The notes below the pieces were generated by a model, which searched no databases, was not told where the DNA came from, and saw only the letters and a program-made list of their open reading frames with translations. A program made the translations under genes and the position numbers. A stretch of DNA of 20,000 nucleotides from an uncultured Methanosarcinales archaeon (GTDB lineage Archaea; Nanobdellota; Nanobdellia; Woesearchaeales; CAXGTL01), in contig CAZHVK010000008.1 in assembly GCA_964535955.1 (NCBI GenBank), positions 52,435 to 72,434 of the forward strand. The letters are read 5' to 3'. Shown here piece by piece: positions 1-19,419 of this stretch (its first letter is position 1; each line of letters starts with the position of its first letter).

Positions 1-1000
1 AATTATGCAAATAAACCCTAAAACTATCCACATATGGAGAATTCCTTAATTTTTTTAATGATCTTGATATGACAAGTCTTATTCCTTCCCTTGTCAAGTC
101 ATAATTTGCCTTGATTTCTTTTAAAGTTCTTTGAATTCCATCTCTTAAACCAAATCTCAACCTCATTATTTCAGCATCCCTCTCAGATAAATACTTTGAT
201 AAGAAGCCTTCCACCTCAGACTTTAGTGCCAATTTGATTGCTGCATCCTCAGTACCCAACCTATTGTCTTTAACAAAATAATATTTTGATACAACACCTT
301 TACCATCTTTTACTTTCTTGTCCAATGAATCACAAGTCTTATCATATCTTATTAATTCATTAAACCTTTCTTTAGAAATGTTTATTTCATGCGCCAGCTC
401 ATGATAATTAGGCTTTCTAAAATGTTTTCTAATGAACTTATTTTCAGTCCTAATCAGTTTGCCAATCAACTCGTAAATCCAAGTAGGAATCCTTATAGTT
501 CTGTCAGAATATATAATCTCATTAACAATCGCATTTCTTATTGACTTTCCTGCAAGATGAGATAGCTTTTTATTGAATTCAATCTTATATTTTCTTGCAC
601 ATCTTAGCAAAGCAATGTTTCCCTCTTGAATCAAATCAAGAAAATCCAGTTTTCTAGTATCATACTCTTTTGCTATTTTCACAACCAAAGGCAAATTATT
701 AGCAACTAAATCCTCTTCTGCTTCCTTGCTAAACTGCTTCTCCTTTCCTAATCTTAACTCTTCCTCAAGACTAAGAACTCTTACTTCTGGAAAACTAGTT
801 ATATATAACTTAAGGTTACTTTCCAAAAATTCTTTATCTTTAACATCATCTTCTTTTTTAGAATCAAATTCATCCCAATATTCAACATAATTAATATCTT
901 TGCGCAAGCTTGTACAAAATCTTTCTATTTTCCCATCAATATCAGAATCTAGAATAAGTAATGCAATTTCTGGTTCATATGCTGTTTGTACGTATTCCAT
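1..1000 (-). CDS. Sigma70-family (RpoD/RpoS-like) RNA polymerase sigma factor homolog, divergent copy A; 333 codons in window, stop lies beyond position 1
   Basis: Not in ORF track; translated by hand from ATG at 1000: MEYVQTAYEPE...SNLKLYITSFPEVRVLSLEEELRLGK (region 1.2)...LVANNLPLVVKIAKEY..RKLDFLDLIQEGNIALLRCARKY (2.1/2.2)...RTIRIP...RKPNYHELA (3)...LSERDAEIMRLRFGLRDGIQRTLKEIKANYDLTREGIRLVISRSLKKLR (4)...RVYLHN. Confidence 0.92.
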   Translation of the reverse strand, partial: MEYVQTAYEPEIALLILDSDIDGKIERFCTSLRKDINYVEYWDEFDSKKEDDVKDKEFLESNLKLYITSFPEVRVLSLEEELRLGKEKQFSKEAEEDLVANNLPLVVKIAKEYDTRKLDFLDLIQEGNIALLRCARKYKIEFNKKLSHLAGKSIRNAIVNEIIYSDRTIRIPTWIYELIGKLIRTENKFIRKHFRKPNYHELAHEINISKERFNELIRYDKTCDSLDKKVKDGKGVVSKYYFVKDNRLGTEDAAIKLALKSEVEGFLSKYLSERDAEIMRLRFGLRDGIQRTLKEIKANYDLTREGIRLVISRSLKKLRNSPYVDSFRVYLHN

Positions 1001-1025
1001 TTATATATTAGTTTATATTAAAGGA

Positions 1026-1040
1026 TTTATATATTTTACT
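1026..1040 (-). promoter_or_regulatory. Archaeal BRE-TATA promoter of sigma copy A (probably leaderless mRNA)
   Basis: Minus strand reads agtaaaa-TATATAAA, then 25 nt to the ATG at 1000; similar geometry to the archaeal genes in the window. Confidence 0.6.
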
Positions 1041-1042
1041 GA

Positions 1043-2113
1043 TTAATTATATTTCCAGAAATCAAAGAACTTTTTTCTGAACATTGGACAAGCTCTTAAT
1101 TTTCTAATTGCCTTTGCCTCAATCTGTCTTATTCTTTCCCTTACTACTCCATACTGCTCACCAATACATTGTAAAGTCCTAGGGATTCCATCTTTCAAGC
1201 CAAATCTTTGCACCATCACATCAACTTCTTTCTCAGATAAATAATGTTTTTCATTAAAAAAATAATCATACATACTTTTTCTTAGAACTGCATGATTGAC
1301 AGCATTATCAACATTAAAATTTTTGTTTTCTATAAAATCTGACAATGTTTCACCTCCCTCATAAATATAATTTAAAGAAAGACATTTATGATTAGCTTTC
1401 ATCAGTGTTTCTACTCTTTGTGGTTTATATCCAGAAGCTTGTGCAATCTCTAGATAAGTGGGTTTTCTTTTTAGTTTTTTTTCTAATTTTCTTTCATGTT
1501 GCAGTAATTGTGAAATTACTTGTACAGATTGAGCAGGTATTCTAATAGTTCTTGATTGTTCTTCAATAGCCCTTACAATTGATTGTCTAATCCTATATGG
1601 TGCATATGTTGAAAATTTGTAACCAAATTTATAATCCCATTTTTTAACAGCTTTCATCAGACCTTTATTACCTTCTTGAATAAGATCATTCCATTCTAAA
1701 CCTCTATTTTTAAACATTTTAGCAACATGCACTACTAAACAAAGGTTTGCCTCTGTAAAATCATTCTCTGCTTGTTTACTTCCTTGTTCAATTCGTTTTG
1801 CTATTTTTTTTTGTTCTTCAAACTCCCTTATACATGATTTTTTCATTATCTCTGTTCTGTATTGTGAAAAAGAATTTGTATAGTCAATGTCTGGGTTTTG
1901 TTTTTCTTTCTTGTTATCTTGTGTTATCTGTTCAAATATATCATTATGTATTTCATTATCATGCTTTTCATTAGATTTTGTCTTTTTTTCTTGTTGTTTA
2001 TTTATATTATATTCAAGAAGTTCTAATTCTATATTGTCTATTGATGTCTCTAGATTGACATTACACTTAAGATCAATATTCACCTCTTTTGTCAATGTTT
2101 GTGTTTTATACAT
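1043..2113 (-). CDS. Sigma70-family (RpoD/RpoS-like) RNA polymerase sigma factor homolog, copy B, 356 aa
   Basis: EANLCLVVHVAKMFKNRGLEWNDLIQEGNKGLMKAVKKWDYKFGYKFSTYA, RTIRIP, RKPTYLEIA, TLSDFIE and RFGLKDGIPRTLQCIGEQYGVVRERIRQIEAKAIRKLR match sigma70 regions 2, 3 and 4. Confidence 0.95.
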   Translation of the reverse strand: MYKTQTLTKEVNIDLKCNVNLETSIDNIELELLEYNINKQQEKKTKSNEKHDNEIHNDIFEQITQDNKKEKQNPDIDYTNSFSQYRTEIMKKSCIREFEEQKKIAKRIEQGSKQAENDFTEANLCLVVHVAKMFKNRGLEWNDLIQEGNKGLMKAVKKWDYKFGYKFSTYAPYRIRQSIVRAIEEQSRTIRIPAQSVQVISQLLQHERKLEKKLKRKPTYLEIAQASGYKPQRVETLMKANHKCLSLNYIYEGGETLSDFIENKNFNVDNAVNHAVLRKSMYDYFFNEKHYLSEKEVDVMVQRFGLKDGIPRTLQCIGEQYGVVRERIRQIEAKAIRKLRACPMFRKKFFDFWKYN

Positions 2114-2140
2114 AGTAATTTTGAGAAATCTAATTATTTG

Positions 2141-2156
2141 TTTTTAAAGTTTTTGG
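2141..2156 (-). promoter_or_regulatory. Archaeal BRE-TATA promoter of sigma copy B
   Basis: Minus strand reads ccaaaaac-TTTAAAAA, then 27 nt to the ATG at 2113. Confidence 0.6.
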
Positions 2157-2204
2157 TTATAGGACTAAAGATTTATATATACCAAAAGATTAAAAGGTAA
2201 TATA

Positions 2205-2531
2205 ATGAAATTTAAGGATTATAAATTAAAAATACATAATGTTGAAAAACATGTTAGATTAAATCCTGTAATGAAAACAAAAAAAGATTATGATGAAGAA
2301 ATTCTTAGATTAAATGAATATTATGAAAAGATAAGGACTTATGAAAAAGAAGTAGAAGAGGACAAGGATCTGACAGACAGTGAAAGAGAACAATTGGTAA
2401 TGTACTTAGGAGCTGTAAAAGACAAGATTGTTGATCAATTTAATAAAGTTACAGCTTTAGGTGATAAAATTATTAGAAAAAAGTTAGAAAAAGAGAATAA
2501 ATGGGTGCCTGTTTTTGAAAAAGCTGCTTAA
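2205..2531 (+). CDS. Hypothetical helical/charged protein, 108 aa, divergent from sigma copy B
   Basis: Clean ORF with upstream TTTATATA box and K/E-rich composition; no family recognised. Confidence 0.75.
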   Translation: MKFKDYKLKIHNVEKHVRLNPVMKTKKDYDEEILRLNEYYEKIRTYEKEVEEDKDLTDSEREQLVMYLGAVKDKIVDQFNKVTALGDKIIRKKLEKENKWVPVFEKAA

Positions 2532-3289
2532 GTGTGATTCATTTTCCATTTCTTCCTAAAAAACTTCAAAGCTTTATTTCTAAATTTAGAATCATTTATT
2601 TTTATAGTTATAGGTTCATCCCCCCACATACTTATCAAAACATGATCCTTAAATATCATCAAACCCCATGGAAAAACTTCATCAGTGTACTTAACTTTGT
2701 ATGTTTTTTTAGTTGTATACAGCTTTTCCCATTCTTTTTTAGATTCTTTTGGTGCTAAACCTTTTAAAATAAGTTTTTTATCTTTAGCAATTGTATCTAA
2801 TTGTAAAAAAAGATTATGAAGTTTTTCATCTTTTTGAAATTCTTTTGGTTGAGATATGAAAGGTGCTTCACTACCTTTTCTAGTATTAAAATAACTTTCC
2901 ATAAAAGCAGTTTTAAACCCTTTTCTTCCTTCATATATCTCTGCACTTGACTTTTTTGCTTGAGATTTAATTGATTTTAGTTTAGGTAAACTTTTTTTAA
3001 TTGTTTTTAGCTTTTTATCTAACACATTTTTCTGTTCCTGCACAAATCCAGTAAATACGTCAGGCTCTGCTGCATTATAATGCTTTATCTTACCTATTAA
3101 TACAAATGTCACAAGACCTTTTTCAATCAACTTATTGACATTATTATGAACAACAGATGATTGTAGATTTGTTTTTTTGATTATTTCACCGACTTTAGAT
3201 TGTCCTAATTCTAATAAAATTAAGTAAATCACAGCCTGAGCATGTGTCAAACCAATATTCTGCAATAATTCTATATCATTTCGATTCAT
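2528..3289 (-). CDS. TrmB-family transcriptional regulator (N-terminal winged HTH plus effector domain)
   Basis: LLQNIGLTHAQAVIYLILLELG..KVGEIIKKTNL..SVVHNNVNKLIEKGLV...HYNAAEP, followed by EIYEGRKG, typical of TrmB-like proteins. Confidence 0.88.
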   Translation of the reverse strand: MNRNDIELLQNIGLTHAQAVIYLILLELGQSKVGEIIKKTNLQSSVVHNNVNKLIEKGLVTFVLIGKIKHYNAAEPDVFTGFVQEQKNVLDKKLKTIKKSLPKLKSIKSQAKKSSAEIYEGRKGFKTAFMESYFNTRKGSEAPFISQPKEFQKDEKLHNLFLQLDTIAKDKKLILKGLAPKESKKEWEKLYTTKKTYKVKYTDEVFPWGLMIFKDHVLISMWGDEPITIKINDSKFRNKALKFFRKKWKMNHT

Positions 3290-3310
3290 ACTCTCCTAAG
3301 AAAGGAGAGT
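3290..3310. promoter_or_regulatory. Palindrome ACTCTCCT-N5-AGGAGAGT between TATA box and start codon of the TrmB-like gene (candidate operator)
   Basis: Perfect 8-bp inverted repeat at 3290-3297/3303-3310; minus-strand TATA box at 3314-3321. Confidence 0.45.
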
Positions 3311-3374
3311 TAGTATATAAATATTACTATTTGTTACTATTTTTTTATTACAAACTGCTTGAGATAGAGACAAA

Positions 3375-4226
3375 ATGGATTATAGAGACAAGATAAAATT
3401 TGCAGATGAAAAAAGTCCTGAATTTATTAAGAATATGGATTATTTTTTTAGAAATTCAAATGAGGATGTACAAATTACAACTGATTTTTTAAAAGAATTC
3501 AGGAAAAGATACAAACAACCAAAAACTAAGTTAGATTGGTTAGATGTTGGCACAGGACCTTGTGTTAAACCAATCATGATTTTAGAAGGAAGTAATAGAA
3601 ATAGTGGTTTGATAAATGATTTCAATGAAATATATATTGATGTTATTGAGCCTGAAGAATCTTGGCACGATATTTTTACACACAATCTTAATGAATTAGG
3701 ATTATATTGGTTAATAACAAATATTTTTAGTTCAACATGGGAAGATTTTGATCAAGATAAAAAGTATAATTTAATTACTTTTTTTCATTCAACATATGGG
3801 ATTGATCCTGAATCATTAGGAAAAGTGCCAAATATATTGCATGAAGGTGGAATTGCATGCATTATATTAGAAGATCCTGAATCTGCATTGTATAAAATTA
3901 AACAAAGAGTTAGTTCTTATATCAATTTAAGAGAAACAGTTTCATTTTCAAAAGAGATCTCTGATGTATTAAGTCAAAAAGGAATTTATCATGAAATTCA
4001 AAAAAATGAATCTAAGAGAATGCTTTATGTTGATGATCTATTGAAAGATGATGATATAACACAATTATCATTTTTATTACAGACAAAATTAGAGAATCAT
4101 GATAAAAGAATACAAAAAAAAGTATTAAATGAAATGAAAGATGAATTAAATAAACATATTAAAGAAGATCAAAATAGGAAAAAATATATAGAAACACCTG
4201 ATGAATTTATATGGGTCTATAACTAA
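3375..4226 (+). CDS. Class I SAM-dependent methyltransferase, 283 aa
   Basis: Motif I WLDVGTGP, acidic end of beta-2 (IDVIEP), TWEDF, YNLITFFHSTY, LHEGGIACII. Confidence 0.82.
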   Translation: MDYRDKIKFADEKSPEFIKNMDYFFRNSNEDVQITTDFLKEFRKRYKQPKTKLDWLDVGTGPCVKPIMILEGSNRNSGLINDFNEIYIDVIEPEESWHDIFTHNLNELGLYWLITNIFSSTWEDFDQDKKYNLITFFHSTYGIDPESLGKVPNILHEGGIACIILEDPESALYKIKQRVSSYINLRETVSFSKEISDVLSQKGIYHEIQKNESKRMLYVDDLLKDDDITQLSFLLQTKLENHDKRIQKKVLNEMKDELNKHIKEDQNRKKYIETPDEFIWVYN

Positions 4227-4236
4227 CTGCAGAATT

Positions 4237-4740
4237 TCACTCAATCAAATCAACTATATAATCACATTTATATTCTTGAATAATTGTTCCTACATCATAG
4301 AATTTTATCACATTAGAAAATTTAGATCTAATAACTCTTAAGACATCATCGAATTCTTTGAAATCTTTTGAACAAATTGCAATTGCTAGATCCCATTTAC
4401 CAGTCATCTTATTTACATAGATAATATTCTTATGCTGGGTTAAAAACCCAATAAATTTATCTTCAATTTCTGGAGTAAAATTAGACAAGCTAAACAAAAC
4501 ATAAGTATACATTGGATAACCTAATTTAGATGGATTCAAAAAAGCATGATACATACGAACAACCTTCAGATCTTCTAATCTTTTGATTCTATATTTTACA
4601 ACATCTCTTTGTAATTTTGTTTTTCTAGCTATCTGGCTAATAGATTGTCTTGCATTAAGCTGCAATTCTTTTAAGATCTTTTTATCTTTTTTATCTAACT
4701 TAACCTTTTCTCCAAACTCAATCAATGTATTTTTATGCAT
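4237..4740 (-). CDS. Lrp/AsnC-family transcriptional regulator
   Basis: LDKKDKKILKELQLNARQSISQIARKTKL..DVVKYRIKRLE HTH; LNPSKLGY; MTGKWDL RAM domain. ATG at 4740 preferred over TTG at 4749. Confidence 0.93.
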   Translation of the reverse strand: MHKNTLIEFGEKVKLDKKDKKILKELQLNARQSISQIARKTKLQRDVVKYRIKRLEDLKVVRMYHAFLNPSKLGYPMYTYVLFSLSNFTPEIEDKFIGFLTQHKNIIYVNKMTGKWDLAIAICSKDFKEFDDVLRVIRSKFSNVIKFYDVGTIIQEYKCDYIVDLIE

Positions 4741-4834
4741 AATATCCAAAATGGATGAAATAATATATAAACTTTTCTATTTTGGTGGAAAAATAGGACA
4801 TAAACATTTATATTATTAAGTTTATCATTTGACT

Positions 4835-5104
4835 ATGATGAAAGCAAATATACCACCTTGGCTTTGTTGGCTAATTGGAATATTGACCATAATTCCACTA
4901 TCAATTGATTCTGGAAGACAGTTTTATTTAGAAAATAAACTATATAATCAAATAGAAATAGTAGCAGACACCAATAATGATAATAGAACCAGCGTAGATG
5001 AATGGGCTGAAGTCTATAAAAAGTTAGGAATTTATTTTAATGATCTTGATCCAAAAGACCTTACAATAAAAGAAATGCAAAAATATTTATCAAGAAATAA
5101 CTAA
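4835..5104 (+). CDS. Small membrane-anchored/secreted protein with EF-hand-like loop
   Basis: N-terminal hydrophobic stretch WLCWLIGILTIIPLSI; DTNNDNRTSVDE fits a DxDxDG-like loop; TATA box upstream. ATG at 4835 preferred. Confidence 0.6.
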   Translation: MMKANIPPWLCWLIGILTIIPLSIDSGRQFYLENKLYNQIEIVADTNNDNRTSVDEWAEVYKKLGIYFNDLDPKDLTIKEMQKYLSRNN

Positions 5105-6528
5105 CCAACCAACTTCCTAACAACATCAACAATCTTTCTACCATCAGCCTTACCTTTTAACTTTGCCATGACTTTGCCAATCATTGCATTGAATGGTAAT
5201 CCTTTATTCTTGTCTATGATTGTCTTGACTTCAGACTCTAAATCAGAATCAGACATCAAATAATAGTTTGCAATAATATCTTTGACAGGCTTATTTTCCA
5301 CCAAGATCTTTTCCACTGAATCTTTTGAAATCTTTCCATCATTAAGCTCTTTAAACAATGTCTTGAAATCATCATTGGTAGGATGAATGTCTTTTTTATG
5401 TTTTTTTGATAACATTTTTGGTAATGAGATAAGGACTTCACCGATAAAACTTGGTTTTATGTTTGTGTGTTGTTCTGCTAATTGTTCAAATAATTTGTGT
5501 TTCTTAGCTTTTGTCAATGCTTTTGCTAAATCCTTACCGAGTTTGTGTTTTTTTTCAAGTTTTTCAGAAATATCATCAATTAATTCTGGTAATTCTAGTT
5601 TAGATGTGTCTGGTTTGTATGTTGGCAGGTCTGTCTCTGGATACATCCTAGCACCGCCAGGCATTGGTCTTAAGTAGGTAGAAGTGTAATCTTTTTTAAC
5701 ATTCCGCACGTGTGCATGTGTTTTTGTGTTTTGTTTTATTTCTTCTAATTGTCGCAAAACTTCATTTTCAATTGCTTTTGGTATTGATCTTATGTCTTGG
5801 AAACCTTTTACTTCTACCCTTGGATGACCTTTGATTGAAACATTTAGATCTTGCCGAATTGTGCCAAGACCTCGCCTAACACCTTCAACTGACCTGCATA
5901 TCATACCAATCTTTTGTGCAACTTCTTGTGCATGCATATTATCTTTGATATCAGGGCCTGTTGCAATCTCAATCAAACCAATTCCTAGTCTTGAAATGTT
6001 CCACAAAGTATAGTCTTCATGGTCTTGAATCTTTTTAGCTGCTTCTTCTTCTAATAAAACAATTGGTATTGTAACACGACCTTTTGATGTATCAATATAA
6101 CCATTTGTTGCGATAAGTGCTGTTCTTTGAAAACCTGACACATTAGAACCATCTATTACTGTTTTTCTCATGACTTGTATTTCATCAACAATCTTTGCAT
6201 TTAATAACAAAGCAATCTTTAGTGCTGTTTCTAGACATTTTGGATTTACTTGATGAGGTGGTTCTTCATCCATTTCAATCAAACAATTTGTGTCATTATA
6301 TGCTTCATAAACATGATATTTTTTTCTTTTTTGTTCATATGCAGCAGCTGTGTCAATTTTACCTGTCTCTCCAACAACTGCTCTGAGTTCTCTTTGAAAT
6401 GTATAATCTGGTTTATCATCTCTAATAACAGCAGAACATTTACAGAATAGTTTTTTTCCATCAAACTGTTGATGTGCTTCAATTCCACATAGGAATCCTA
6501 ATTTTTGGTAATCAAGTTGTTCTGACAT
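5101..6528 (-). CDS. gatE: Glu-tRNA(Gln) amidotransferase subunit E (short form)
   Basis: GFLCGIEAHQQ..KKLFC, DEEPPH, MRKTVIDGSNVSGFQRTAL, LEEEAA, RRGLGTIRQDLNVSI, RPMPGGARMYPETD, C-terminal Yqey-like domain. Confidence 0.95.
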   Translation of the reverse strand: MSEQLDYQKLGFLCGIEAHQQFDGKKLFCKCSAVIRDDKPDYTFQRELRAVVGETGKIDTAAAYEQKRKKYHVYEAYNDTNCLIEMDEEPPHQVNPKCLETALKIALLLNAKIVDEIQVMRKTVIDGSNVSGFQRTALIATNGYIDTSKGRVTIPIVLLEEEAAKKIQDHEDYTLWNISRLGIGLIEIATGPDIKDNMHAQEVAQKIGMICRSVEGVRRGLGTIRQDLNVSIKGHPRVEVKGFQDIRSIPKAIENEVLRQLEEIKQNTKTHAHVRNVKKDYTSTYLRPMPGGARMYPETDLPTYKPDTSKLELPELIDDISEKLEKKHKLGKDLAKALTKAKKHKLFEQLAEQHTNIKPSFIGEVLISLPKMLSKKHKKDIHPTNDDFKTLFKELNDGKISKDSVEKILVENKPVKDIIANYYLMSDSDLESEVKTIIDKNKGLPFNAMIGKVMAKLKGKADGRKIVDVVRKLVG

Positions 6529-9443: not shown

Positions 9444-9713
9444 ATGGGATTTGATGAATATAATTTTGATAATGTTGTTGATGATCTTAGATACAATATA
9501 CAAGAATGCATAGATTATTATAGAAATACTGATAATGATAAACCTAAGAATTATACTACTTTTATGTTATTTTTACAAATTTTAAAACACGAACATGGTG
9601 TAGAAGATCCAAGTAATGTGGAAATAATGAATTCTTTTAAAAAAAAACCTTGTAAAACTAAAGAAAAACAAGCTTTGCAAGACAATGTAATAGATTTGTC
9701 AGAATACTTATAA
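9444..9713 (+). CDS. Hypothetical protein, 89 aa
   Basis: ORF with TTTAAATA box ~22 nt upstream and a hairpin downstream; no family recognised. Confidence 0.6.
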   Translation: MGFDEYNFDNVVDDLRYNIQECIDYYRNTDNDKPKNYTTFMLFLQILKHEHGVEDPSNVEIMNSFKKKPCKTKEKQALQDNVIDLSEYL

Positions 9714-9729
9714 AGTATTCTGAGCATGA

Positions 9730-9750
9730 TCAAGAATCTGCGATTCTTGA
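9730..9750 (+). terminator. Perfect 9-bp hairpin downstream of the 89-aa ORF (terminator-like or binding site)
   Basis: tcaagaatc-tgc-gattcttga; no following U-tract, so the function is uncertain. Confidence 0.35.
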
Positions 9751-9908
9751 CATAACTTCTAGATTAAAGCAATAAAGTTTCATACTTTTGAAAAGTGGTG
9801 ACTATTAAATTCTTAACTTATATGTTCTGTATGTGACAATATACTGTTTTGTATACTAAATTACAAATATACACTTTCGTAACATTTATATACTAGTATA
9901 ACATAAAA

Positions 9909-10376
9909 GAATGTATAACAAATGATCATTAACAAAGCTAATGATTGTTAACATTCATAAAAAAGGGGCTCTGTTTATAATTCTAATAATACCACCCCTC
10001 ACACTCATATAACTCGAGCCCCTTATTATTTTCACATAATCATTAATTCATATAGGCGAAGAAAAAAGTAATAAGTTGTTCATTAATGCAGATCAGGAAT
10101 ATGAACAATGAAACGAGTTGAATCTGACCTGAAACCAAAAAGCTACTTAGACCAGCTCTTTACTTGATAGGACCTTGGAGAAAAAAGAGGTGTAAAATAA
10201 ATTAGTATGAGGTGATGCAATAGTAACTTTGATGACTAAATGCTTTTTTTGGGCAAGGCATTTATGAAAAGTAGTTAATTAACATTTTAATTGCCCTATA
10301 TTTTTTTTTAACCTGGGTGAGTATAAGTTTGACTTGGTGCTGGGCTGTTACCTTGTAAACTTCACAAAAACTCACC
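9909..10376 (+). ncRNA. Candidate structured RNA or long leader made of consecutive hairpins; no known family recognised
   Basis: No long ORF. Stems: 9909-9956 (gaatgt/acattc, taaca/tgtta, atcatta/taatgat), 9963-10024 (aaggggctc/gagcccctt), 10076-10108 (ttgttcat/atgaacaa), 10156-10189 (ctcttt/aaagag), 10237-10264 (taaatgcttt/aaggcattta), 10316-10376 (ggtgagt/actcacc, aagttt/aaactt). BRE-TATA cgtaaca-TTTATATA with TATA at 9885-9892. Confidence 0.55.
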
Positions 10377-10408
10377 AAATATTTTTTTTAAAAACAAAAA
10401 CAAGAAAA

Positions 10409-10543
10409 ATGGAAGACACTGTATTTGGATCAATAATATTTAGCACAAATCTTATCTTAATAGTTCTGAGTTTATTCATAACAATGCATTATACTAAGAA
10501 TTACAAATTACTAAAAGAAATAAAAGAGGTGATTACAATCTAA
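10409..10543 (+). CDS. Small single-pass membrane peptide, 44 aa
   Basis: MEDTVFGSIIFSTNLILIVLSLFITMHYTKNYKLLKEIKEVITI: ~20-aa hydrophobic helix followed by a basic tail. ATG at 10409 preferred over TTG at 10334, which lies inside a hairpin. Confidence 0.5.
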   Translation: MEDTVFGSIIFSTNLILIVLSLFITMHYTKNYKLLKEIKEVITI

Positions 10544-10756
10544 AGAATGAATTTTTGATCGAACTAATTGTTTTAAGGACACAAAAGGTTGATTTCTTTA
10601 ATCTGTTTTATATAGGTTAATCTAATTTTCTTACAAGTTCTTCAATACAATAAACAAAAATAATACATGAATACATAAAATTTTAAGTATTCTGTCTAAT
10701 TCTGAGATTTAATAAATTAGCAAAGATTTATAAACATTACACAAAAACAAAATAAC

Positions 10757-11782
10757 ATGTTAACAAAACAAGATTATGATGATATAAGAAAAGAATTAGA
10801 CAATTGTCATCACCCTGTATATTTTTATGATGATGATGCAGATGGTTTATCTAGTTTCTTATTATTCTATAGATATGTAAGAGAAGGCAAAGGTATTATT
10901 CTTAAAACACATCCAAATGTGGATATGAAATTCATTGATAAAGTCAAATATTATTTTCCTGATAAAATATTTATACTAGATATTGTAAGAACTGAACAAG
11001 AATTTATTGATAAAGTAAAAACACCGATTATATGGATTGATCATCATGGTCCTATTGAAAGAAGAGGTGTAAAATATTATAATCCTTTGTTAAAAGAACC
11101 TAAGAAAAACATGCCTACTTCTTATTTATGTTATAAAGTTGTTCAACAAGATCTGTGGATTGCAATGGTTGGTATTGTAGGAGATTGGACATTGCCAAAA
11201 GATTTAGGTGAAAAGTTCTCTGAAAAATATCCTGATCTGCTTCCACCTAATGTGACTGACCCGGGTGTAGCAATGTTTGAAACTAAACTTGGCACACTTA
11301 TACAAATTTATGAGTTTTGTATGAAAGGAAAAACATCTGAAGTAAAGAAATTCATAAAGATATTGACAAGAATTAATGATCCTTATGAAATTTTGCAAGG
11401 CAAGACACCAAGAACTAAATTGATTATGAGGCATTATAAGAAGATTAAAAAAGAATTTGATTCATTGAAAAAAGAGATTAAGGTTGATAAATCATCACCA
11501 TTAGTTGTGTTTCAATATCATGTTAATAGAATGAGTCTATCTGGTGAACTTTCTAATTATGTATTATACAAATATCCTAAAAAGCTTACAATAATTGCGC
11601 GTGAGAAAGGTGGTGAAATGAAATGTTCTTTAAGATCACACAAGTATAATGTAAGAGAGATTATGGCAAAAGCTTTGATTGGTGTTGAAGGTTTTGGTGG
11701 TGGACATATAGAAGCATGTGGTGGTGTGATTAAGAAGTATGATTGGGATAAGTTCTTGGATAAGGTTAGGGAACAATTATAG
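10757..11782 (+). CDS. DHH/DHHA1-family phosphoesterase (RecJ/NrnA-like nuclease)
   Basis: DDDADG, ILD, IDHH, GIVGD, SLRS, GGGH motifs; TATA box 22 nt upstream. Confidence 0.92.
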   Translation: MLTKQDYDDIRKELDNCHHPVYFYDDDADGLSSFLLFYRYVREGKGIILKTHPNVDMKFIDKVKYYFPDKIFILDIVRTEQEFIDKVKTPIIWIDHHGPIERRGVKYYNPLLKEPKKNMPTSYLCYKVVQQDLWIAMVGIVGDWTLPKDLGEKFSEKYPDLLPPNVTDPGVAMFETKLGTLIQIYEFCMKGKTSEVKKFIKILTRINDPYEILQGKTPRTKLIMRHYKKIKKEFDSLKKEIKVDKSSPLVVFQYHVNRMSLSGELSNYVLYKYPKKLTIIAREKGGEMKCSLRSHKYNVREIMAKALIGVEGFGGGHIEACGGVIKKYDWDKFLDKVREQL

Positions 11783-16343: not shown

Positions 16344-16462
16344 GCCCCTGTAGCTTAATGGCTAGAGCAGCACTCTCGTAAAGTGCAGGTTGCAGGTTCA
16401 AACAGACTCACTGGCGTTTGATACTTTCAACGCTAGGAGCATTGAAAATCCTGCCAGGGGCT
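16344..16462 (+). tRNA. tRNA-Thr(CGU) with 46-nt intron at 59/60 (16403-16448)
   Basis: Acceptor GCCCCTG/CAGGGGC; anticodon arm GCACT-CT-CGT-AA-AGTGC; T stem GCAGG/CCTGC; BHB helix ttca/tgaa with bulges aac and aat restores TTCAAAT; U73. Confidence 0.93.
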
Positions 16463-17493: not shown

Positions 17494-18435
17494 CTATTTA
17501 TTTTTTTGTGATTTTTTCTTGTTTTTTGCCTTTTTAACTTCTTTTTCTAATTTAAGTTTTATAATAAGTTCTTTATATCTGTTTCTTATTGTAACTTCTG
17601 TAACGCCTGCAACATCTGCAACTTCTCTTTGTGTTCTTTTTTCACCATGAATCAAAGATGAAATATATAAAGCTGCAGCTGCTATACCACTAGGGCCTTT
17701 ACCAGATGTTAATTCTAATTTCTGAGCTTTTTCTAAGAACTCAATTGCTTTGGTTTGACATTCTGGACTTAATTTTAATTTGCTTGAAAACCTACTGATA
17801 TAATCAACAGGATTAGTAGGTAAAACAAAAATTTTTAGTTCTCTTACTACAAACCTATAGATTTTTCCAATTTCTTTTTTTTCAATACCTGATGCAGAAG
17901 ATAATTCCTCTAATTTTCTTGGCATTTCATGGATCTTGCAAGCAGCATATAGAACAGCAGAAACAACAGATTCCATTGATCTTCCACGAACCAATCCTTT
18001 TTGTGCAGCTGTCTTATATATACGAGCTGCTTCTTCTTCGATAGCTTTTGGTAATTTTAAAATAGATGAAAATCTTTTTATTTCTGATAATGAAAATCTA
18101 AGATTCTTCTCAAGACCAGAATTACCAATATATTGCTGTTTTCTCAATCTTATCATTTTATATTTATCTTTACCTTTTAATTTACTAATATCTGCTTTAC
18201 TTCCAATTTCAGTACGTAAAGGATCAAAGTCTAAATCAGAAATAGGTGATCCTGTTCTTCTTTTTGCTGCATCTGCACCACTATTTTCACCAAACTCACG
18301 CCATTCTTGACCATGATCTATAACCTTATCATCAATAACTAAACCACATTCTTTACAAAGAATCTGTCCTTTATCTTTATCATAATAAATTTTCTTTCTT
18401 CCGCATTCTGGACATTTTTCTATGAAACCTGACAT
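17494..18435 (-). CDS. tfb: Transcription initiation factor IIB (TFB), diverged paralog
   Basis: CPECG..CKECG Zn ribbon, EWREF, GLVRGRS, TQREVADVAGVTEVTIRNRYKEL. Confidence 0.95.
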   Translation of the reverse strand: MSGFIEKCPECGRKKIYYDKDKGQILCKECGLVIDDKVIDHGQEWREFGENSGADAAKRRTGSPISDLDFDPLRTEIGSKADISKLKGKDKYKMIRLRKQQYIGNSGLEKNLRFSLSEIKRFSSILKLPKAIEEEAARIYKTAAQKGLVRGRSMESVVSAVLYAACKIHEMPRKLEELSSASGIEKKEIGKIYRFVVRELKIFVLPTNPVDYISRFSSKLKLSPECQTKAIEFLEKAQKLELTSGKGPSGIAAAALYISSLIHGEKRTQREVADVAGVTEVTIRNRYKELIIKLKLEKEVKKAKNKKKSQKNK

Positions 18436-18483: not shown

Positions 18484-19419
18484 TTATCTTCGTCTTTTCT
18501 TTTTCTTAGTGTTTTTAATTTCTTTTTCTAGCTTGAGTCTTTCTAATAATTCCTTATAACGGTTCCTTATTGTAACTTCTGTAACACCTGCTACATCTGC
18601 AACTTCTCTTTGTGTTCTTTTTTCACCATGAATTAGCGCACTAACATATAATGCTGCTGCAGCTATGCCAGTAGGTCCTCTTCCTGATGTTAGTTCTACT
18701 TCTTGTGCTTTTTCTAGAATTTCCATTGCACGAGATTGTGATTCTGCACTTAATTTTAATGCACTTGCAAATCTTGCAATATAATCAGCAGGATTACTTG
18801 GTAAAATTGAGATTCCTAGTTCTCTTGTAACAAATCTGTATGTTCTGCCTATTTCTTTTTTCTCAATACCAGATGCTTCTGATAATTCATCTAATGTTCT
18901 TGGTACTTCATGACGCCTACATGCTGCGTATAATGCTCCTGATACAACAGATTCCATTGATCTTCCTCTTACAAGACCTCTTTGTACAGCCATTCTATAA
19001 ATACGAGCTGCTTCTTCTTCAACACTTCCTGGTAATTTTAGATAAGAAGATACTCTTTTTAATTCTGATAATGCTAATTTTAAGTTTCTTTCTATTGCAG
19101 TTGATATTCTTGACTGCCATTTCCTAAGTCTAAAGAATTTGTTTCTGTTTTTTCCAGCTAATTTAAATAAATCTGATTTTTGACCAATCTCTGTTCCTAG
19201 CCCCATATCAAACTCTGTATCAGAAATTGGTGCGCCTGTTCTTCTTTTAGATGCATCTGCGCCAGCATTTTCACCAAATTCACGCCATTCTTGACCAAAA
19301 TCAATCATCTTGTCTTCAATAACAAGACCACAATCTTTACAAATAACTTCTCCTTTTTCTTTATTATGAAATAGATTTATTCCGCCGCATTCTGGGCATT
19401 TTTTAACAAAGTGTGTCAT
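18484..19419 (-). CDS. tfb: Transcription initiation factor IIB (TFB), canonical copy
   Basis: CPECG..CKDCG, EWREF, RLRKWQ, ERNL, GLVRGRS, PRTLDEL, SGRGP, TQREVADVAGVTEVTIRNRYKEL. Confidence 0.97.
   Translation of the reverse strand: MTHFVKKCPECGGINLFHNKEKGEVICKDCGLVIEDKMIDFGQEWREFGENAGADASKRRTGAPISDTEFDMGLGTEIGQKSDLFKLAGKNRNKFFRLRKWQSRISTAIERNLKLALSELKRVSSYLKLPGSVEEEAARIYRMAVQRGLVRGRSMESVVSGALYAACRRHEVPRTLDELSEASGIEKKEIGRTYRFVTRELGISILPSNPADYIARFASALKLSAESQSRAMEILEKAQEVELTSGRGPTGIAAAALYVSALIHGEKRTQREVADVAGVTEVTIRNRYKELLERLKLEKEIKNTKKKKRRR

What the first reader, a model, noticed from the sequence alone, without database searches (positions are those of the whole stretch)
1..2156. Tandem bacterial-type sigma70 genes embedded in an archaeal chromosome and driven by archaeal promoters
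Seen: two adjacent co-oriented ORFs with sigma70 regions 1.2, 2, 3 and 4 in RpoD/RpoS order. They share a contig with gatE, rpl21e, rpo4, two TFBs and BHB-intron tRNAs, have similar AT richness, and each has a BRE-TATA box 25-27 nt before the ATG. Established: archaeal RNAP initiates with TBP/TFB/TFE and does not use sigma factors. Inference: these are domesticated, duplicated and diverged genes rather than contamination, implying an undescribed role. Options are a sequence-specific regulator, a factor that binds the archaeal RNAP clamp and competes with TFB/TFE/Spt5, or an effector acting on a bacterial partner's RNAP. Copy A is absent from the ORF track because its stop lies outside the window.
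Basis: partly seen in the sequence, partly recalled or inferred. Interest (0 to 1): 0.9.

Follow-up and report, generated by a model that had tools for sequence, protein, structure and literature searches.

The report
Fast-evolving sigma-factor relics in a DPANN archaeon
Two neighbouring genes in this small symbiotic-type archaeon descend from a bacterial sigma factor but have changed so much that they probably no longer work as one; such genes in these archaea are already in print, and their job is still unknown.

Summary
Two co-oriented minus-strand ORFs, sigA (2-1000, 333 aa) and sigB (1043-2113, 356 aa), carry Sigma70 regions 2, 3 and 4. They lie on a clearly archaeal contig with GatE, XPD, L21e, Rpo4, DUF655 and two TFBs.

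This is not a chimera. Two independent Woesearchaeota-type MAGs with 83-85% identical GatE carry one or two sigma-like genes directly after gatE. Codon usage matches the neighbouring genes.

The five archaeal copies form one side of a branch (84/85) and share a Cys that bacterial sigmas lack. Their branches are 3-10 changes per column against a median of 0.8. They are 28-36% identical where neighbouring orthologues are 65-94% identical. Rough dN/dS is about 0.5-0.8 against 0.12-0.29. The frames are nevertheless kept open (0 of 4000 neutral simulations).

The DLIQEGN helix survives in 4 of 5 copies. The Trp pair is lost in 3 of 5, including both window copies.

Sigma-70 genes in 38-39% of Woese-/Pacearchaeota genomes were reported in 2021, so this is a new member of a known kind. 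My best guess is a sigma-derived regulator working inside the archaeal cell, possibly on the RNAP clamp. That guess is unproven.

The parts
1043..2113 (-). sigB: an intact 356-aa gene derived from sigma-70. Sigma2 maps to about 1547-1753, sigma3 to 1319-1516 and sigma4 to 1091-1240. An N-terminal stretch of about 95 aa has low confidence and no family.
   Evidence: ORF. Pfam r2, r3 and r4 above gathering. Best NCBIfam model RpoD at 238 bits against a 572 cut-off. AF2 model pLDDT 83.5. Foldseek top hit SigA 9a58_A, E 3e-20.
2..1000 (-). sigA: the more degenerate 333-aa paralogue. Sigma2 maps to about 515-709, sigma3 to 305-472 and sigma4 to 41-190. Its stop codon is cut by the window edge.
   Evidence: ORF. 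Pfam r2 and r4 above gathering, r3 at 23.5 below 25.3. Identical to the stored 333-aa protein P0243. Keeps 55 of 93 near-invariant sigma columns.
2141..2148 (-). TATA-like box TTTAAAAA, 27 nt before the sigB ATG, preceded by an A-rich stretch. No Shine-Dalgarno motif, so a leaderless or short-leader transcript is likely.
   Evidence: Sequence. The same box type and spacing occur at 8 of 22 genes of the window. L002 s1 has TTTAAAAA with a 22-nt gap.
1026..1033 (-). Loose TATA-like element TATATAAA in the 42-nt sigB-sigA spacer, 25 nt before the sigA ATG. sigA may instead be co-transcribed with sigB.
   Evidence: Sequence. No strict YTTAWAWA match.
119..193 (.). A 75-nt stretch of sigA (region 4.1) that is 73% identical at the DNA level to sigB 1169-1243. 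This is a trace of paralogy.
   Evidence: Direct repeat D1.
2205..5104 (.). Variable block of five genes between sigB and gatE: a 108-aa protein, a TrmB-like regulator, a 283-aa protein, an Lrp/AsnC regulator and a 91-aa protein. None has a match in the four loci of close relatives compared.
   Evidence: Pfam. No BLASTP match at E <= 1e-5 in L001, L002, L023 or L027.
5101..6528 (-). gatE (short, 475-aa form). It is the conserved anchor next to which the sigma-like genes lie in the relatives.
   Evidence: NCBIfam GatE 496.7 against a 456 cut-off. 85% identical in L001 and L002, and 83-84% over the partial copies in L023 and L027.

Best explanation
SHOWN. sigA and sigB are intact chromosomal genes of a Woesearchaeota-type DPANN archaeon. 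They descend from a bacterial group-1-like (RpoD/SigA-type) sigma-70 gene. They belong to a small archaeal clade of sigma-derived genes that sits in a variable spot downstream of gatE, with one or two copies per genome and none at that spot in one close relative. The clade evolves several times faster than its neighbours, yet the frames are kept open by selection.

INFERRED. These proteins no longer act as bacterial initiation factors. Both window copies have lost the Trp pair and other residues used for -10 recognition, melting and the extended -10. sigA has also lost -35-reading residues. What survives is the sigma2/sigma3/sigma4 fold, the region 2.2 helix DLIQEGN (the surface that docks bacterial sigma on the RNAP clamp helices), the RTIRxP motif and, in sigB, the canonical region 4.2 helix-turn-helix.

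MOST LIKELY MECHANISM. They work inside the archaeal cell as accessory transcription regulators expressed from archaeal promoters. sigB would bind DNA through sigma4. One or both copies would dock on the homologous clamp coiled-coil of the archaeal RNAP (Rpo1N), where TFE and Spt5 bind, and so modulate initiation. I give the clamp-docking version about 0.25-0.3 and a DNA-binding-only regulator about 0.2. Both fall within this explanation.
For: IDENTITY AND RESIDENCE.
- Pfam and NCBIfam assign both proteins to the sigma-70 family. The AF2 model has pLDDT 83.5 and its best PDB matches are all sigma factors.
- The contig is archaeal. Composition is host-like.
- The sigma HMM was run over all ORFs of the 80 GatE loci. 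It hit only L002 (two tandem genes right after gatE), L023 (one gene, 2 nt after the gatE stop) and a weak sigma4-only ORF in L003.

ONE ARCHAEAL CLADE.
- The 5 archaeal copies form one side of a branch, with support 84/85 and in 84% of 200 bootstrap trees.
- A Cys in 'KCxSL' is present in 5 of 5 copies, where the bacterial consensus has Pro.
- An AU test does not reject sigA+sigB as a clade. The constrained tree is 4.35 lnL better, p-AU 0.568.
- A 75-nt stretch is 73% identical at the DNA level between the two genes.

FAST BUT SELECTED.
- End branches are 3-10 against a median of 0.8.
- The copies are 28-36% identical, against 65-94% for the 12 neighbouring proteins that have a match in L001 or L002.
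- NG86 dN/dS is 0.46-0.82, against 0.12, 0.14 and 0.29 for GatE, XPD and hyp224.
- None of 4000 neutral simulations keeps either frame open at 0.25 or 0.5 substitutions per site.

LOSS OF SIGMA-SPECIFIC RESIDUES.
- 93 columns are >=90% identical in 129 bacterial-type representatives. sigB keeps 71 of them and sigA keeps 55. The representatives themselves keep a minimum of 83% and a median of 98%.
- The Trp pair becomes YR in sigB and KS in sigA. The Thr of 'AITRAI' becomes Val in both.
- 'VHMvE' of region 3.0 becomes AQSvQ in sigB and TWIyE in sigA.
- Region 2.2 is kept at 12 of 12 columns in sigB and 8 of 12 in sigA. DLIQEGN is present in 4 of 5 archaeal copies and RTIRxP in 5 of 5. RERIRQ is kept in sigB and in L002 s1.

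PROMOTERS..

CLAMP DOCKING (weak evidence).
- I ran complex prediction with sigB residues 78-200 against residues 1-345 of M. jannaschii Rpo1N. The verdict was weak support: score 0.49, best of 3 controls 0.27.
- The tool's mark was reached by 116 of 157 solved complexes and 2 of 215 mismatched pairs. At 0.60 or under it was reached by only 18 of those 157, and by both mismatches that passed.
- The runs agree in >=68% of contacts and the partner's pLDDT is >=76. My own alignment was used, so the counts hold only roughly.
Against: - No direct evidence of expression, DNA binding or RNAP binding exists here.
- The complex score is weak. It used a stand-in Rpo1N from another archaeon. It may only echo solved bacterial sigma-beta' complexes. 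The control that kept the sigma fragment still scored 0.27.
- DLIQEGN is not universal in the clade; L023 has DLEQVGY. It could also be kept for folding reasons alone.
- The canonical -35 motif TTGACA is not enriched in the window: 17 matches against 19.75 expected.
- A dN/dS of 0.5-0.8 also fits weak constraint or a conflict-type role. The estimates are rough, because dS is near 1 and the alignments are at about 33% identity.
- The archaeal clade in the tree joins very long branches, so long-branch attraction cannot be excluded (warning). In the larger tree that lacked the relatives, sigB paired with an unnamed 518-aa protein, P0291, at 96/85.
- Orthology among the copies is unresolved. The dS of 1.06 and the shared termini point to sigB = L002 s2. 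The motif pattern and gene order point to sigB = L002 s1.
- Whether this genome also holds bacterial-type rpoB/rpoC could not be checked.
Confidence: 0.5

Rival explanations
1. Conflict or partner-directed protein. The sigma-like proteins are fast-evolving weapons or decoys. One version is a melting-deficient 'poison sigma' that occupies the RNAP of a bacterial (or other) partner, prey or competitor. Another is a factor in virus-host conflict.
For: - Evolution is very fast: dN/dS 0.46-0.82 against 0.12-0.29 for neighbours.
- Copy number varies and the genes are present or absent at a variable locus among close relatives.
- The core-binding helix 2.2 is kept while the melting residues are lost, as a dominant-negative protein would need.
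- Language-model look-alikes include clusters that are 60% viral. The best PHROG is a phage sigma family, phrog_351, E 2e-54.
Against: - By my reading of the translations, neither N-terminus has a hydrophobic signal-like or membrane stretch (no predictor was run).
- No secretion, phage, integrase or defence genes were seen nearby. PHROGs gave nothing for 4 neighbouring proteins, and no such gene is named among the Pfam hits.
- In L023 the gene is fused into the gatE transcription unit, 2 nt after the gatE stop.
- The PHROG and atlas matches are what any sigma-70 would give.
- The MzaA anti-phage model scores 217.8 against a cut-off of 800.
Confidence: 0.15
2. Still a working sigma factor. The organism, or a bacterial-type polymerase it also encodes, uses sigB and sigA for promoter-specific initiation in the bacterial manner.
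For: - All three globular sigma domains are present and confidently folded.
- sigB keeps the Gln of region 2.4 and the RERIRQ recognition helix of region 4.2.
- Two relatives, L002 s2 and L023 s, keep the Trp pair.
Against: - The Trp pair is 100% conserved in 129 of 129 representatives, yet it is lost in both window copies. Region 3.0 keeps only 2 of 6 near-invariant columns in each.
- Scores are far below every RpoD, RpoS and RpoH equivalog cut-off.
- Region 1.1 and region 1.2 models do not match.
- TTGACA is not enriched.
- Nothing bacterial-type was seen on the window. The loci of the relatives were compared with the window's genes and scanned for sigma only, not for polymerase genes.
- It is established knowledge that archaeal RNAP initiates with TBP, TFB and TFE (review PMC7289017, passages read).
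Confidence: 0.08
3. Functionless relics. The genes were acquired from bacteria and are drifting toward loss.
For: - Branches are extremely long and near-invariant residues have been lost.
- dN/dS is high.
- The genes are absent from the syntenic spot in L001.
- In L003 only a sigma4 fragment-like ORF remains.
Against: - Five full-length open frames exist in three genomes that are about 0.9 synonymous substitutions per site apart.
- 0 of 4000 neutral simulations keep either frame open in this AT-rich DNA.
- dN/dS is below 1 in all 6 sigma pairs tested.
- Conserved motifs persist: RTIRxP, FGL and the Cys in 5 of 5 copies.
- Promoter boxes are retained.
Confidence: 0.07
4. Assembly chimera or bacterial contamination joined to an archaeal contig.
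For: The sigma genes lie at the very edge of the window. No read data were available.
Against: - The same arrangement next to gatE occurs in two other MAG records.
- Both proteins are listed on 6 contigs, the longest 73,689 bases.
- GC3 and codon usage match the neighbours.
- No bacterial protein is closer than 47% identity to sigB or 38% to sigA among 5.8 billion clusters. The exhaustive search of 1.84 billion representatives found nothing above the general RpoD continuum.
Confidence: 0.02

Closest known systems
Sigma-70 family genes of DPANN archaea (family fam00359 of Castelle et al. 2021, PMC8204110)
   Same: - These are sigma-70 domain genes on archaeal contigs of Woesearchaeota and related groups.
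- Table S3 gives the family in 0.39 of 196 Woesearchaeota, 0.38 of 90 Pacearchaeota, 0.38 of 37 Aenigmarchaeota, 0.16 of 25 Diapherotrites and 0.15 of 13 Micrarchaeota genomes.
- Mis-binning was excluded, no anti-sigma factor was found and the function was left open.
   Different: - That paper gives presence only.
- Added here: a tandem pair, its placement beside gatE in close relatives, a very high evolutionary rate, and the pattern of lost and kept functional residues.
- I could not see the family's sequences, so I could not test whether sigA and sigB fall inside it.
Bacterial group 1 (primary) sigma factors RpoD/SigA
   Same: - Same domain order of sigma2, sigma3 and sigma4.
- Best sequence matches: B. 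subtilis SigA 7ckq_F at 197 bits and RpoD NCBIfam models.
- Best structural matches are also sigma factors.
- The region 2.2 helix is kept, and in sigB the region 4.2 helix as well.
   Different: - Scores are far below the equivalog cut-offs: 238 against 572 for sigB, and 160 against 354 for sigA.
- No region 1.1 or region 1.2 model match.
- The Trp pair and region 3.0 residues are lost.
- 76% (sigB) and 59% (sigA) of near-invariant columns are kept, against at least 83% in all 129 representatives.
- The host is archaeal and the promoters are of the archaeal type.
Archaeal TFB and TFE, the native initiation factors
   Same: - If the clamp-docking idea is right, the sigma2 domain would use the site on the clamp coiled-coil that TFE and Spt5 use. 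This is recalled from the literature; I did not read it here.
- The review seen notes only very limited sequence similarity between sigma-70 and TFB.
   Different: - These are not homologues in any practical sense.
- The window has two ordinary TFB genes of its own, at 17494-18435 and 18484-19419.

Membership tests
Sigma-70 family (Pfam) | Region 2 domain (PF04542) above the gathering score | tested here: met
   sigB 50.7 bits and sigA 39.9 bits, against a cut-off of 24.
Sigma-70 family (Pfam) | Region 4 domain (PF04545) above the gathering score | tested here: met
   sigB 45.2 bits and sigA 38.6 bits, against a cut-off of 24.1.
Sigma-70 family (Pfam) | Region 3 domain (PF04539) above the gathering score | tested here: inconclusive
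   sigB scores 32.4 against 25.3, which meets the cut-off. sigA scores 23.5, just under it.
Group 1 primary sigma (RpoD/SigA) | Equivalog-level score to RpoD/SigA models | tested here: not met
   Best for sigB is 238.2 against 572. Best for sigA is 160.3 against 354.
Group 1 primary sigma (RpoD/SigA) | Regions 1.1 and 1.2 present | tested here: not met
   No PF03979 or PF00140 hit at E <= 0.01. Most bacterial hits carry PF00140, and many also carry PF03979.
Group 1 primary sigma (RpoD/SigA) | Invariant Trp pair and the -10 / extended -10 reading residues of regions 2.3 to 3.0 | tested here: not met
   The Trp pair is 100% conserved in 129 of 129 representatives. It is YR in sigB and KS in sigA. 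Region 3.0 keeps 2 of 6 near-invariant columns in each copy. The functional roles of these residues are recalled, not read here.
RpoS / RpoH / SigB-F-G subfamilies | Score above the NCBIfam cut-off | tested here: not met
   For sigB: rpoS 198.2 against 378.7, rpoH 109.6 against 323.1, SigBFG 96.4 against 234. sigA scores lower on all three.
DPANN sigma-70 genes (Castelle et al. 2021) | A sigma-70 domain protein encoded on a contig whose other genes are archaeal (DPANN) | tested here: met
   The nearest GatE loci are Woesearchaeota, Nanoarchaeota and Pacearchaeota MAGs.
DPANN sigma-70 genes (Castelle et al. 2021) | Clustering in their protein family fam00359 | not testable with these tools
   Only the family's summary row is in Table S3. 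No member sequences were available.
MzaA (sigma of the MZA anti-phage system) | Score above the NCBIfam cut-off | tested here: not met
   217.8 (sigB) and 149.3 (sigA) against a cut-off of 800. PADLOC was not run.
Phage-encoded sigma factors (phrog_351) | Sequence match plus viral gene context | tested here: not met
   The match is present, at E 2e-54 and 2e-40. None of the 4 neighbouring proteins scanned matches any PHROG. The gene neighbourhood is chromosomal.

The most novel reading that the evidence does not exclude
A bacterial sigma factor has been re-tooled in a DPANN lineage into a new class of archaeal RNAP-binding factor. Its sigma2 domain would dock on the Rpo1N clamp coiled-coil through the conserved DLIQEGN helix. 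Its sigma4 domain would tether the complex to specific DNA sites. This would give these reduced genomes an extra, fast-evolving layer of promoter control at the site used by TFE and Spt5. According to the review read, these genomes lack TFE-beta.
Probability: 0.25. Interest if true: 0.85.

Novelty: new member of a known kind. Interest (0 to 1): 0.5.

Why it matters
Sigma factors and the TBP/TFB/TFE system are textbook markers separating bacterial from archaeal transcription. Sigma-derived genes kept under selection in archaea are therefore a natural experiment in moving an initiation factor between the two systems.

The loci found here give concrete, comparable proteins for binding and transcription assays. 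There are three genomes and five copies. Each copy has lost a different combination of DNA-melting and -35-reading residues.

If the proteins dock on the archaeal RNAP clamp, that would be a new regulator class. It would also bear on the debated deep relationship of sigma with TFB and TFE. If they are only DNA-binding regulators, the case is an ordinary, if striking, example of domain recycling after gene transfer.

Tried and rejected
- SCAN OF GENOME_CONTIGS WITH sigB. 72 pattern matches were found, but none encodes a relative. This species is therefore not among the representative genomes.
- SEARCH FOR CLOSER RELATIVES. I tried the word-indexed search with sigB, with sigA and with a profile of the 5 archaeal copies, and the exhaustive HMMER search with a sigA+sigB profile. 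Beyond self clusters and P0409 (which is L023 s), only the general RpoD continuum came back. The two apparent outliers, P0244 and P0245, are duplicated or chimeric ordinary RpoDs.
- CLUSTER LOOK-UPS FOR NAMES. They gave almost none. P0291, which paired with sigB in the first tree (96/85), stays of unknown origin. It lacks the clade's Cys.
- TTGACA ENRICHMENT. None: 17 matches against 19.75 expected.
- FLANKING REPEATS. No att-like repeats around the sigma genes or the variable block. Apart from the sigA/sigB paralogy repeat D1, only short, low-identity, AT-rich matches appeared.
- PHAGE CONTEXT. None.
- PROTEIN ATLAS. Only generic sigma clusters; no structure search was possible.
- ORTHOLOGY AMONG THE FIVE COPIES. 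It could not be settled.
- tRNA INTRONS. Not found.
- LITERATURE. Five searches found no paper other than Castelle et al. 2021 that deals with sigma factors in DPANN.
- NOT AVAILABLE. 


Full report
WHAT IS THERE

Positions 1-2156 hold two co-oriented minus-strand ORFs. sigB runs 1043..2113 and is 356 aa. sigA runs 2..1000 and is 333 aa, with its frame reaching the window edge. sigA is identical to a stored 333-aa protein (P0243), so only its stop codon is cut off.

Pfam finds Sigma70 regions 2, 3 and 4 in both proteins. The exception is region 3 of sigA, at 23.5 bits, just under the 25.3 cut-off. No region 1.1 or region 1.2 model matches. The best NCBIfam models are RpoD/SigA-type but far below the equivalog cut-offs: 238 against 572 for sigB and 160 against 354 for sigA. 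The two proteins are 32% identical to each other.

An AlphaFold2 model of sigB, built from a 35-row alignment, has mean pLDDT 83.5 and pTM 0.55. Helical sigma2, sigma3 and sigma4 are confident, while the N-terminal 95 residues or so are weak. The listed PDB matches are all sigma-factor chains. The best is SigA 9a58_A, E 3e-20.

THE CONTIG IS ARCHAEAL AND THE GENES BELONG TO IT

The other genes include TrmB-like and Lrp/AsnC regulators, XPD, a DHH phosphoesterase, ribosomal protein L21e, Rpo4, DUF655, a UDG-family protein and two TFBs. GatE scores above the NCBIfam cut-off.

GC3 is 0.25 for sigA and 0.18 for sigB. Codon-usage divergence from the pooled other genes is 0.066 and 0.052. Both measures lie inside the ranges of the 17 other genes, which are 0.12-0.29 and 0.046-0.157.

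I scanned 22 ORFs for promoter boxes. These were the ORFs of 89 aa or more, after I dropped 8 shorter ORFs that lie antisense inside longer ones. A YTTAWAWA box ending 18-34 nt before the start codon occurs at 8 of the 22 (observed gaps 22-27 nt), sigB included (TTTAAAAA, gap 27). The pattern's frequency over the window is 0.0013 per position. sigA has no strict box. It has only TATATAAA, 25 nt upstream, in the 42-nt spacer, so it may be co-transcribed with sigB.

RELATIVES

sigB has no relative above 47% identity and sigA none above 38% in the 5.8-billion-cluster collection. All listed hits have the domain set of ordinary RpoD, and every hit that carries a name is bacterial.

An exhaustive HMMER search of 1.84 billion representatives with a sigA+sigB profile gave 690 and 566 bits for the two self clusters. 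After that came a continuum starting near 240 bits. The two higher hits are duplicated or chimeric RpoDs.

A scan of representative genomes with sigB found nothing. A scan with the neighbouring GatE returned 80 loci. Three records have 83-85% identical GatE:
- L001.
- L002, titled Candidatus Woesearchaeota.
- L023 and L027, which come from one further MAG.
The next best loci are 41-54% identical. They are mostly titled Woesearchaeota, Nanoarchaeota or Pacearchaeota. The window therefore comes from a Woesearchaeota-type DPANN archaeon.

I ran a sigma HMM over every ORF of 60 aa or more in the 80 loci. It hit only these:
- L002, with two tandem genes directly after gatE: s1 at 4140-5087 (315 aa) and s2 at 5224-6306 (360 aa).
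- L023, with one gene of 294 aa starting 2 nt after the gatE stop.
- L003, with a weak sigma4-only ORF.
L001 has a TFB gene after gatE and no sigma-like gene within 10 kb.

The five window genes between gatE and sigB have no match in L001, L002, L023 or L027. The sigma-like genes therefore occupy a variable spot beside a conserved anchor. Both L002 copies have TATA-like boxes: TTTAAAAA with a 22-nt gap and CTTAAATA with a 33-nt gap.

ONE ARCHAEAL, FAST-EVOLVING CLADE

I built a tree of the 5 archaeal copies with 30 bacterial-type proteins, chosen by me from the set used for the earlier tree. The five form one side of a branch, with support 84/85 and in 84% of 200 bootstrap trees. Their end branches are 3-10 changes per column against a median of 0.8. 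The program warns that long branches meet, so the grouping alone is not proof.

Shared derived residues support the grouping. A Cys in 'KCxSL' of region 3.2 is present in 5 of 5 copies, where the bacterial consensus has Pro. Shared position beside gatE supports it too.

For the window pair, an AU test does not reject sigA+sigB as a clade. The constrained tree is 4.35 log-likelihood units better than the free tree, p-AU 0.568. A 75-nt stretch is 73% identical between the two genes.

An earlier 54-row tree without the relatives placed sigB beside an unnamed 518-aa protein, P0291, at 96/85. P0291 lacks the Cys, and its origin is unknown.

Between the window and L001 or L002, 12 neighbouring proteins are 65-94% identical. 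The sigma-like proteins are 28-36% identical.

Rough Nei-Gojobori estimates:

| Pair | dS | dN/dS |
|---|---|---|
| GatE, window vs L002 | 0.95 | 0.12 |
| XPD, window vs L002 | 0.91 | 0.14 |
| hyp224, window vs L002 | 0.73 | 0.29 |
| sigB vs L002 s2 | 1.06 | 0.60 |
| four other sigma pairs | 1.3-1.7 | 0.46-0.54 |
| L002 s2 vs L023 s | 0.85 | 0.82 |

These values are rough because dS is near saturation and the alignments are at about 33% identity. The frames are nevertheless maintained. In 4000 neutral simulations each at 0.25 and 0.5 substitutions per site, neither frame ever stayed open.

WHAT IS KEPT AND WHAT IS LOST

I aligned sigA and sigB with 129 single-stretch representatives out of the 150 listed. 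I dropped the 2 self clusters and 19 multi-stretch proteins. 93 columns are at least 90% identical among the 129. sigB keeps 71 of them and sigA keeps 55. The representatives themselves keep at least 83%, with a median of 98%.

Kept:
- The region 2.1 core.
- The region 2.2 helix: 12 of 12 columns in sigB and 8 of 12 in sigA. DLIQEGN is present in 4 of the 5 archaeal copies; L023 has DLEQVGY.
- RTIRxP, in 5 of 5 copies.
- The FGL motif of region 4.1, in 5 of 5 copies.
- RERIRQ of region 4.2, in sigB and in L002 s1.

Lost:
- The Trp pair, which is 100% conserved in the representatives. It is YR in sigB, KS in sigA and SG in L002 s1. It is kept in L002 s2 and L023 s.
- The Thr of 'AITRAI', which is Val in both window copies.
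- Region 3.0 'VHMvE', with 2 of 6 columns kept in each copy.
- In sigA, also the Tyr and Gln of regions 2.3 and 2.4 and two residues of the region 4.2 helix, which reads REGIRL.

The functional meaning of these residues is recalled from the bacterial literature and was not read here. By that recollection, region 2.2 docks on the beta' clamp helices. The Trp pair and neighbouring aromatic residues handle -10 melting. Region 3.0 reads the extended -10 element. Region 4.2 reads the -35 element. The region boundaries and E. coli numbering I used are also recalled.

MECHANISM

What is shown: these are selected, host-adapted, sigma-derived genes of an archaeon.

What I infer: they are not bacterial-style initiation factors any more, because both window copies lack residues that no ordinary sigma in the sample lacks. 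The most likely role is an accessory transcription regulator inside the archaeal cell. It would use the sigma4 helix-turn-helix (intact in sigB), the conserved region 2.2 surface, or both.

Bacterial beta' clamp helices and the archaeal Rpo1N clamp coiled-coil are homologous. From memory, TFE and Spt5 bind that coiled-coil. I therefore tested docking with sigB residues 78-200 against residues 1-345 of M. jannaschii Rpo1N. The verdict was weak support:
- Score 0.49, with the best of 3 controls at 0.27.
- The tool's mark was reached by 116 of 157 solved complexes and 2 of 215 mismatched pairs.
- At 0.60 or under, the mark was reached by only 18 of those 157, and by both mismatches that passed.
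- The runs agree in at least 68% of contacts, and the partner's pLDDT is at least 76.

This prediction used a stand-in polymerase and my own alignment. It may simply echo solved bacterial holoenzymes. I count it as a small nudge only.

The canonical -35 hexamer TTGACA is not enriched in the window: 17 matches against 19.75 expected.

The rivals are a conflict or partner-directed protein, a still-working sigma, decaying relics and an assembly chimera. Each is laid out with its evidence in its own section.

WHAT IS KNOWN

Castelle et al. 2021 (PMC8204110) reported sigma-70 genes (fam00359) in DPANN. I read the passage on sigma factors and the family's row in Table S3. The paper calls the genes 'particularly prevalent in Woesearchaeota', excludes mis-binning, finds no anti-sigma factors and leaves the mechanism open. 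Table S3 gives the family in 0.39 of 196 Woesearchaeota, 0.38 of 90 Pacearchaeota and 0.38 of 37 Aenigmarchaeota genomes.

Five full-text searches found no other paper on the subject. A 2018 review of archaeal transcription, of which I read passages, does not mention archaeal sigma genes. It does state that TFE-beta is absent from DPANN.

The kind is therefore known. New here are the tandem pair, its relatives beside gatE, the extreme evolutionary rate and the residue pattern.

LIMITS

- Orthology among the five copies is unresolved.
- The donor lineage cannot be named from these trees.

Noticed in passing
window 17494-18435 and 18484-19419 (minus strand): Two tandem full-length TFB genes. The close relative L001 shows one TFB in the locus I fetched; it is 94% identical to the second window copy and 68% to the first. 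This may be a recent TFB duplication, or a loss in the relative.
   Followed up: partly
window 5101-6528: GatE is only 475 aa, against a model length of 622-630. It matches the model in two stretches, as if an internal domain were missing. The 28 best-matching loci (mostly Woesearchaeota, Nanoarchaeota or Pacearchaeota by title) match over spans of similar length, whereas most other archaeal loci span about 1800-1900 nt.
   Followed up: no
window 2205-5104: A block of five genes, including TrmB-like and Lrp/AsnC regulators, has no counterpart in the loci of the close relatives. Together with the two sigma-like genes, 4 of the 7 genes in 1-5104 are predicted DNA-binding or transcription proteins.
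   Followed up: partly
L003 7969-8442: In another Nanoarchaeota MAG, a small ORF about 6 kb from gatE looks like a stand-alone sigma region 4. It scores E 2e-6 against a general sigma HMM but only 0.021 against the archaeal-clade HMM.
   Followed up: no
L002 6303-6665 and L023 1493-1831 (minus strand): Just downstream of the sigma-like genes in both relatives lies a small protein of 112-120 aa. By eye it starts with a hydrophobic stretch resembling a signal peptide and ends in a conserved 'KRYFKWEF'-type motif. What lies in the equivalent place left of the window is unknown.
   Followed up: no
L001, L023, L027 record titles: These records are titled 'uncultured Methanosarcinales archaeon'. Yet their GatE and many neighbouring genes are 65-94% identical to this window and to a record titled Woesearchaeota. 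The title taxonomy looks wrong.
   Followed up: no
window 9713-10757: A stretch of about 1 kb has no ORF of 80 aa or more and no Rfam match at E <= 0.1. The only RNA gene found in the window is one tRNA at 16344-16416, barely above the gathering score (29.7 against 29). ARAGORN misses it.
   Followed up: partly
proteins P0121 and P0241: Population variants exist. One sigA variant has a 9-aa deletion in the acidic N-terminal part. One sigB variant has a single Val-to-Asp change in region 2.1. Both are otherwise identical to the window's proteins.
   Followed up: partly
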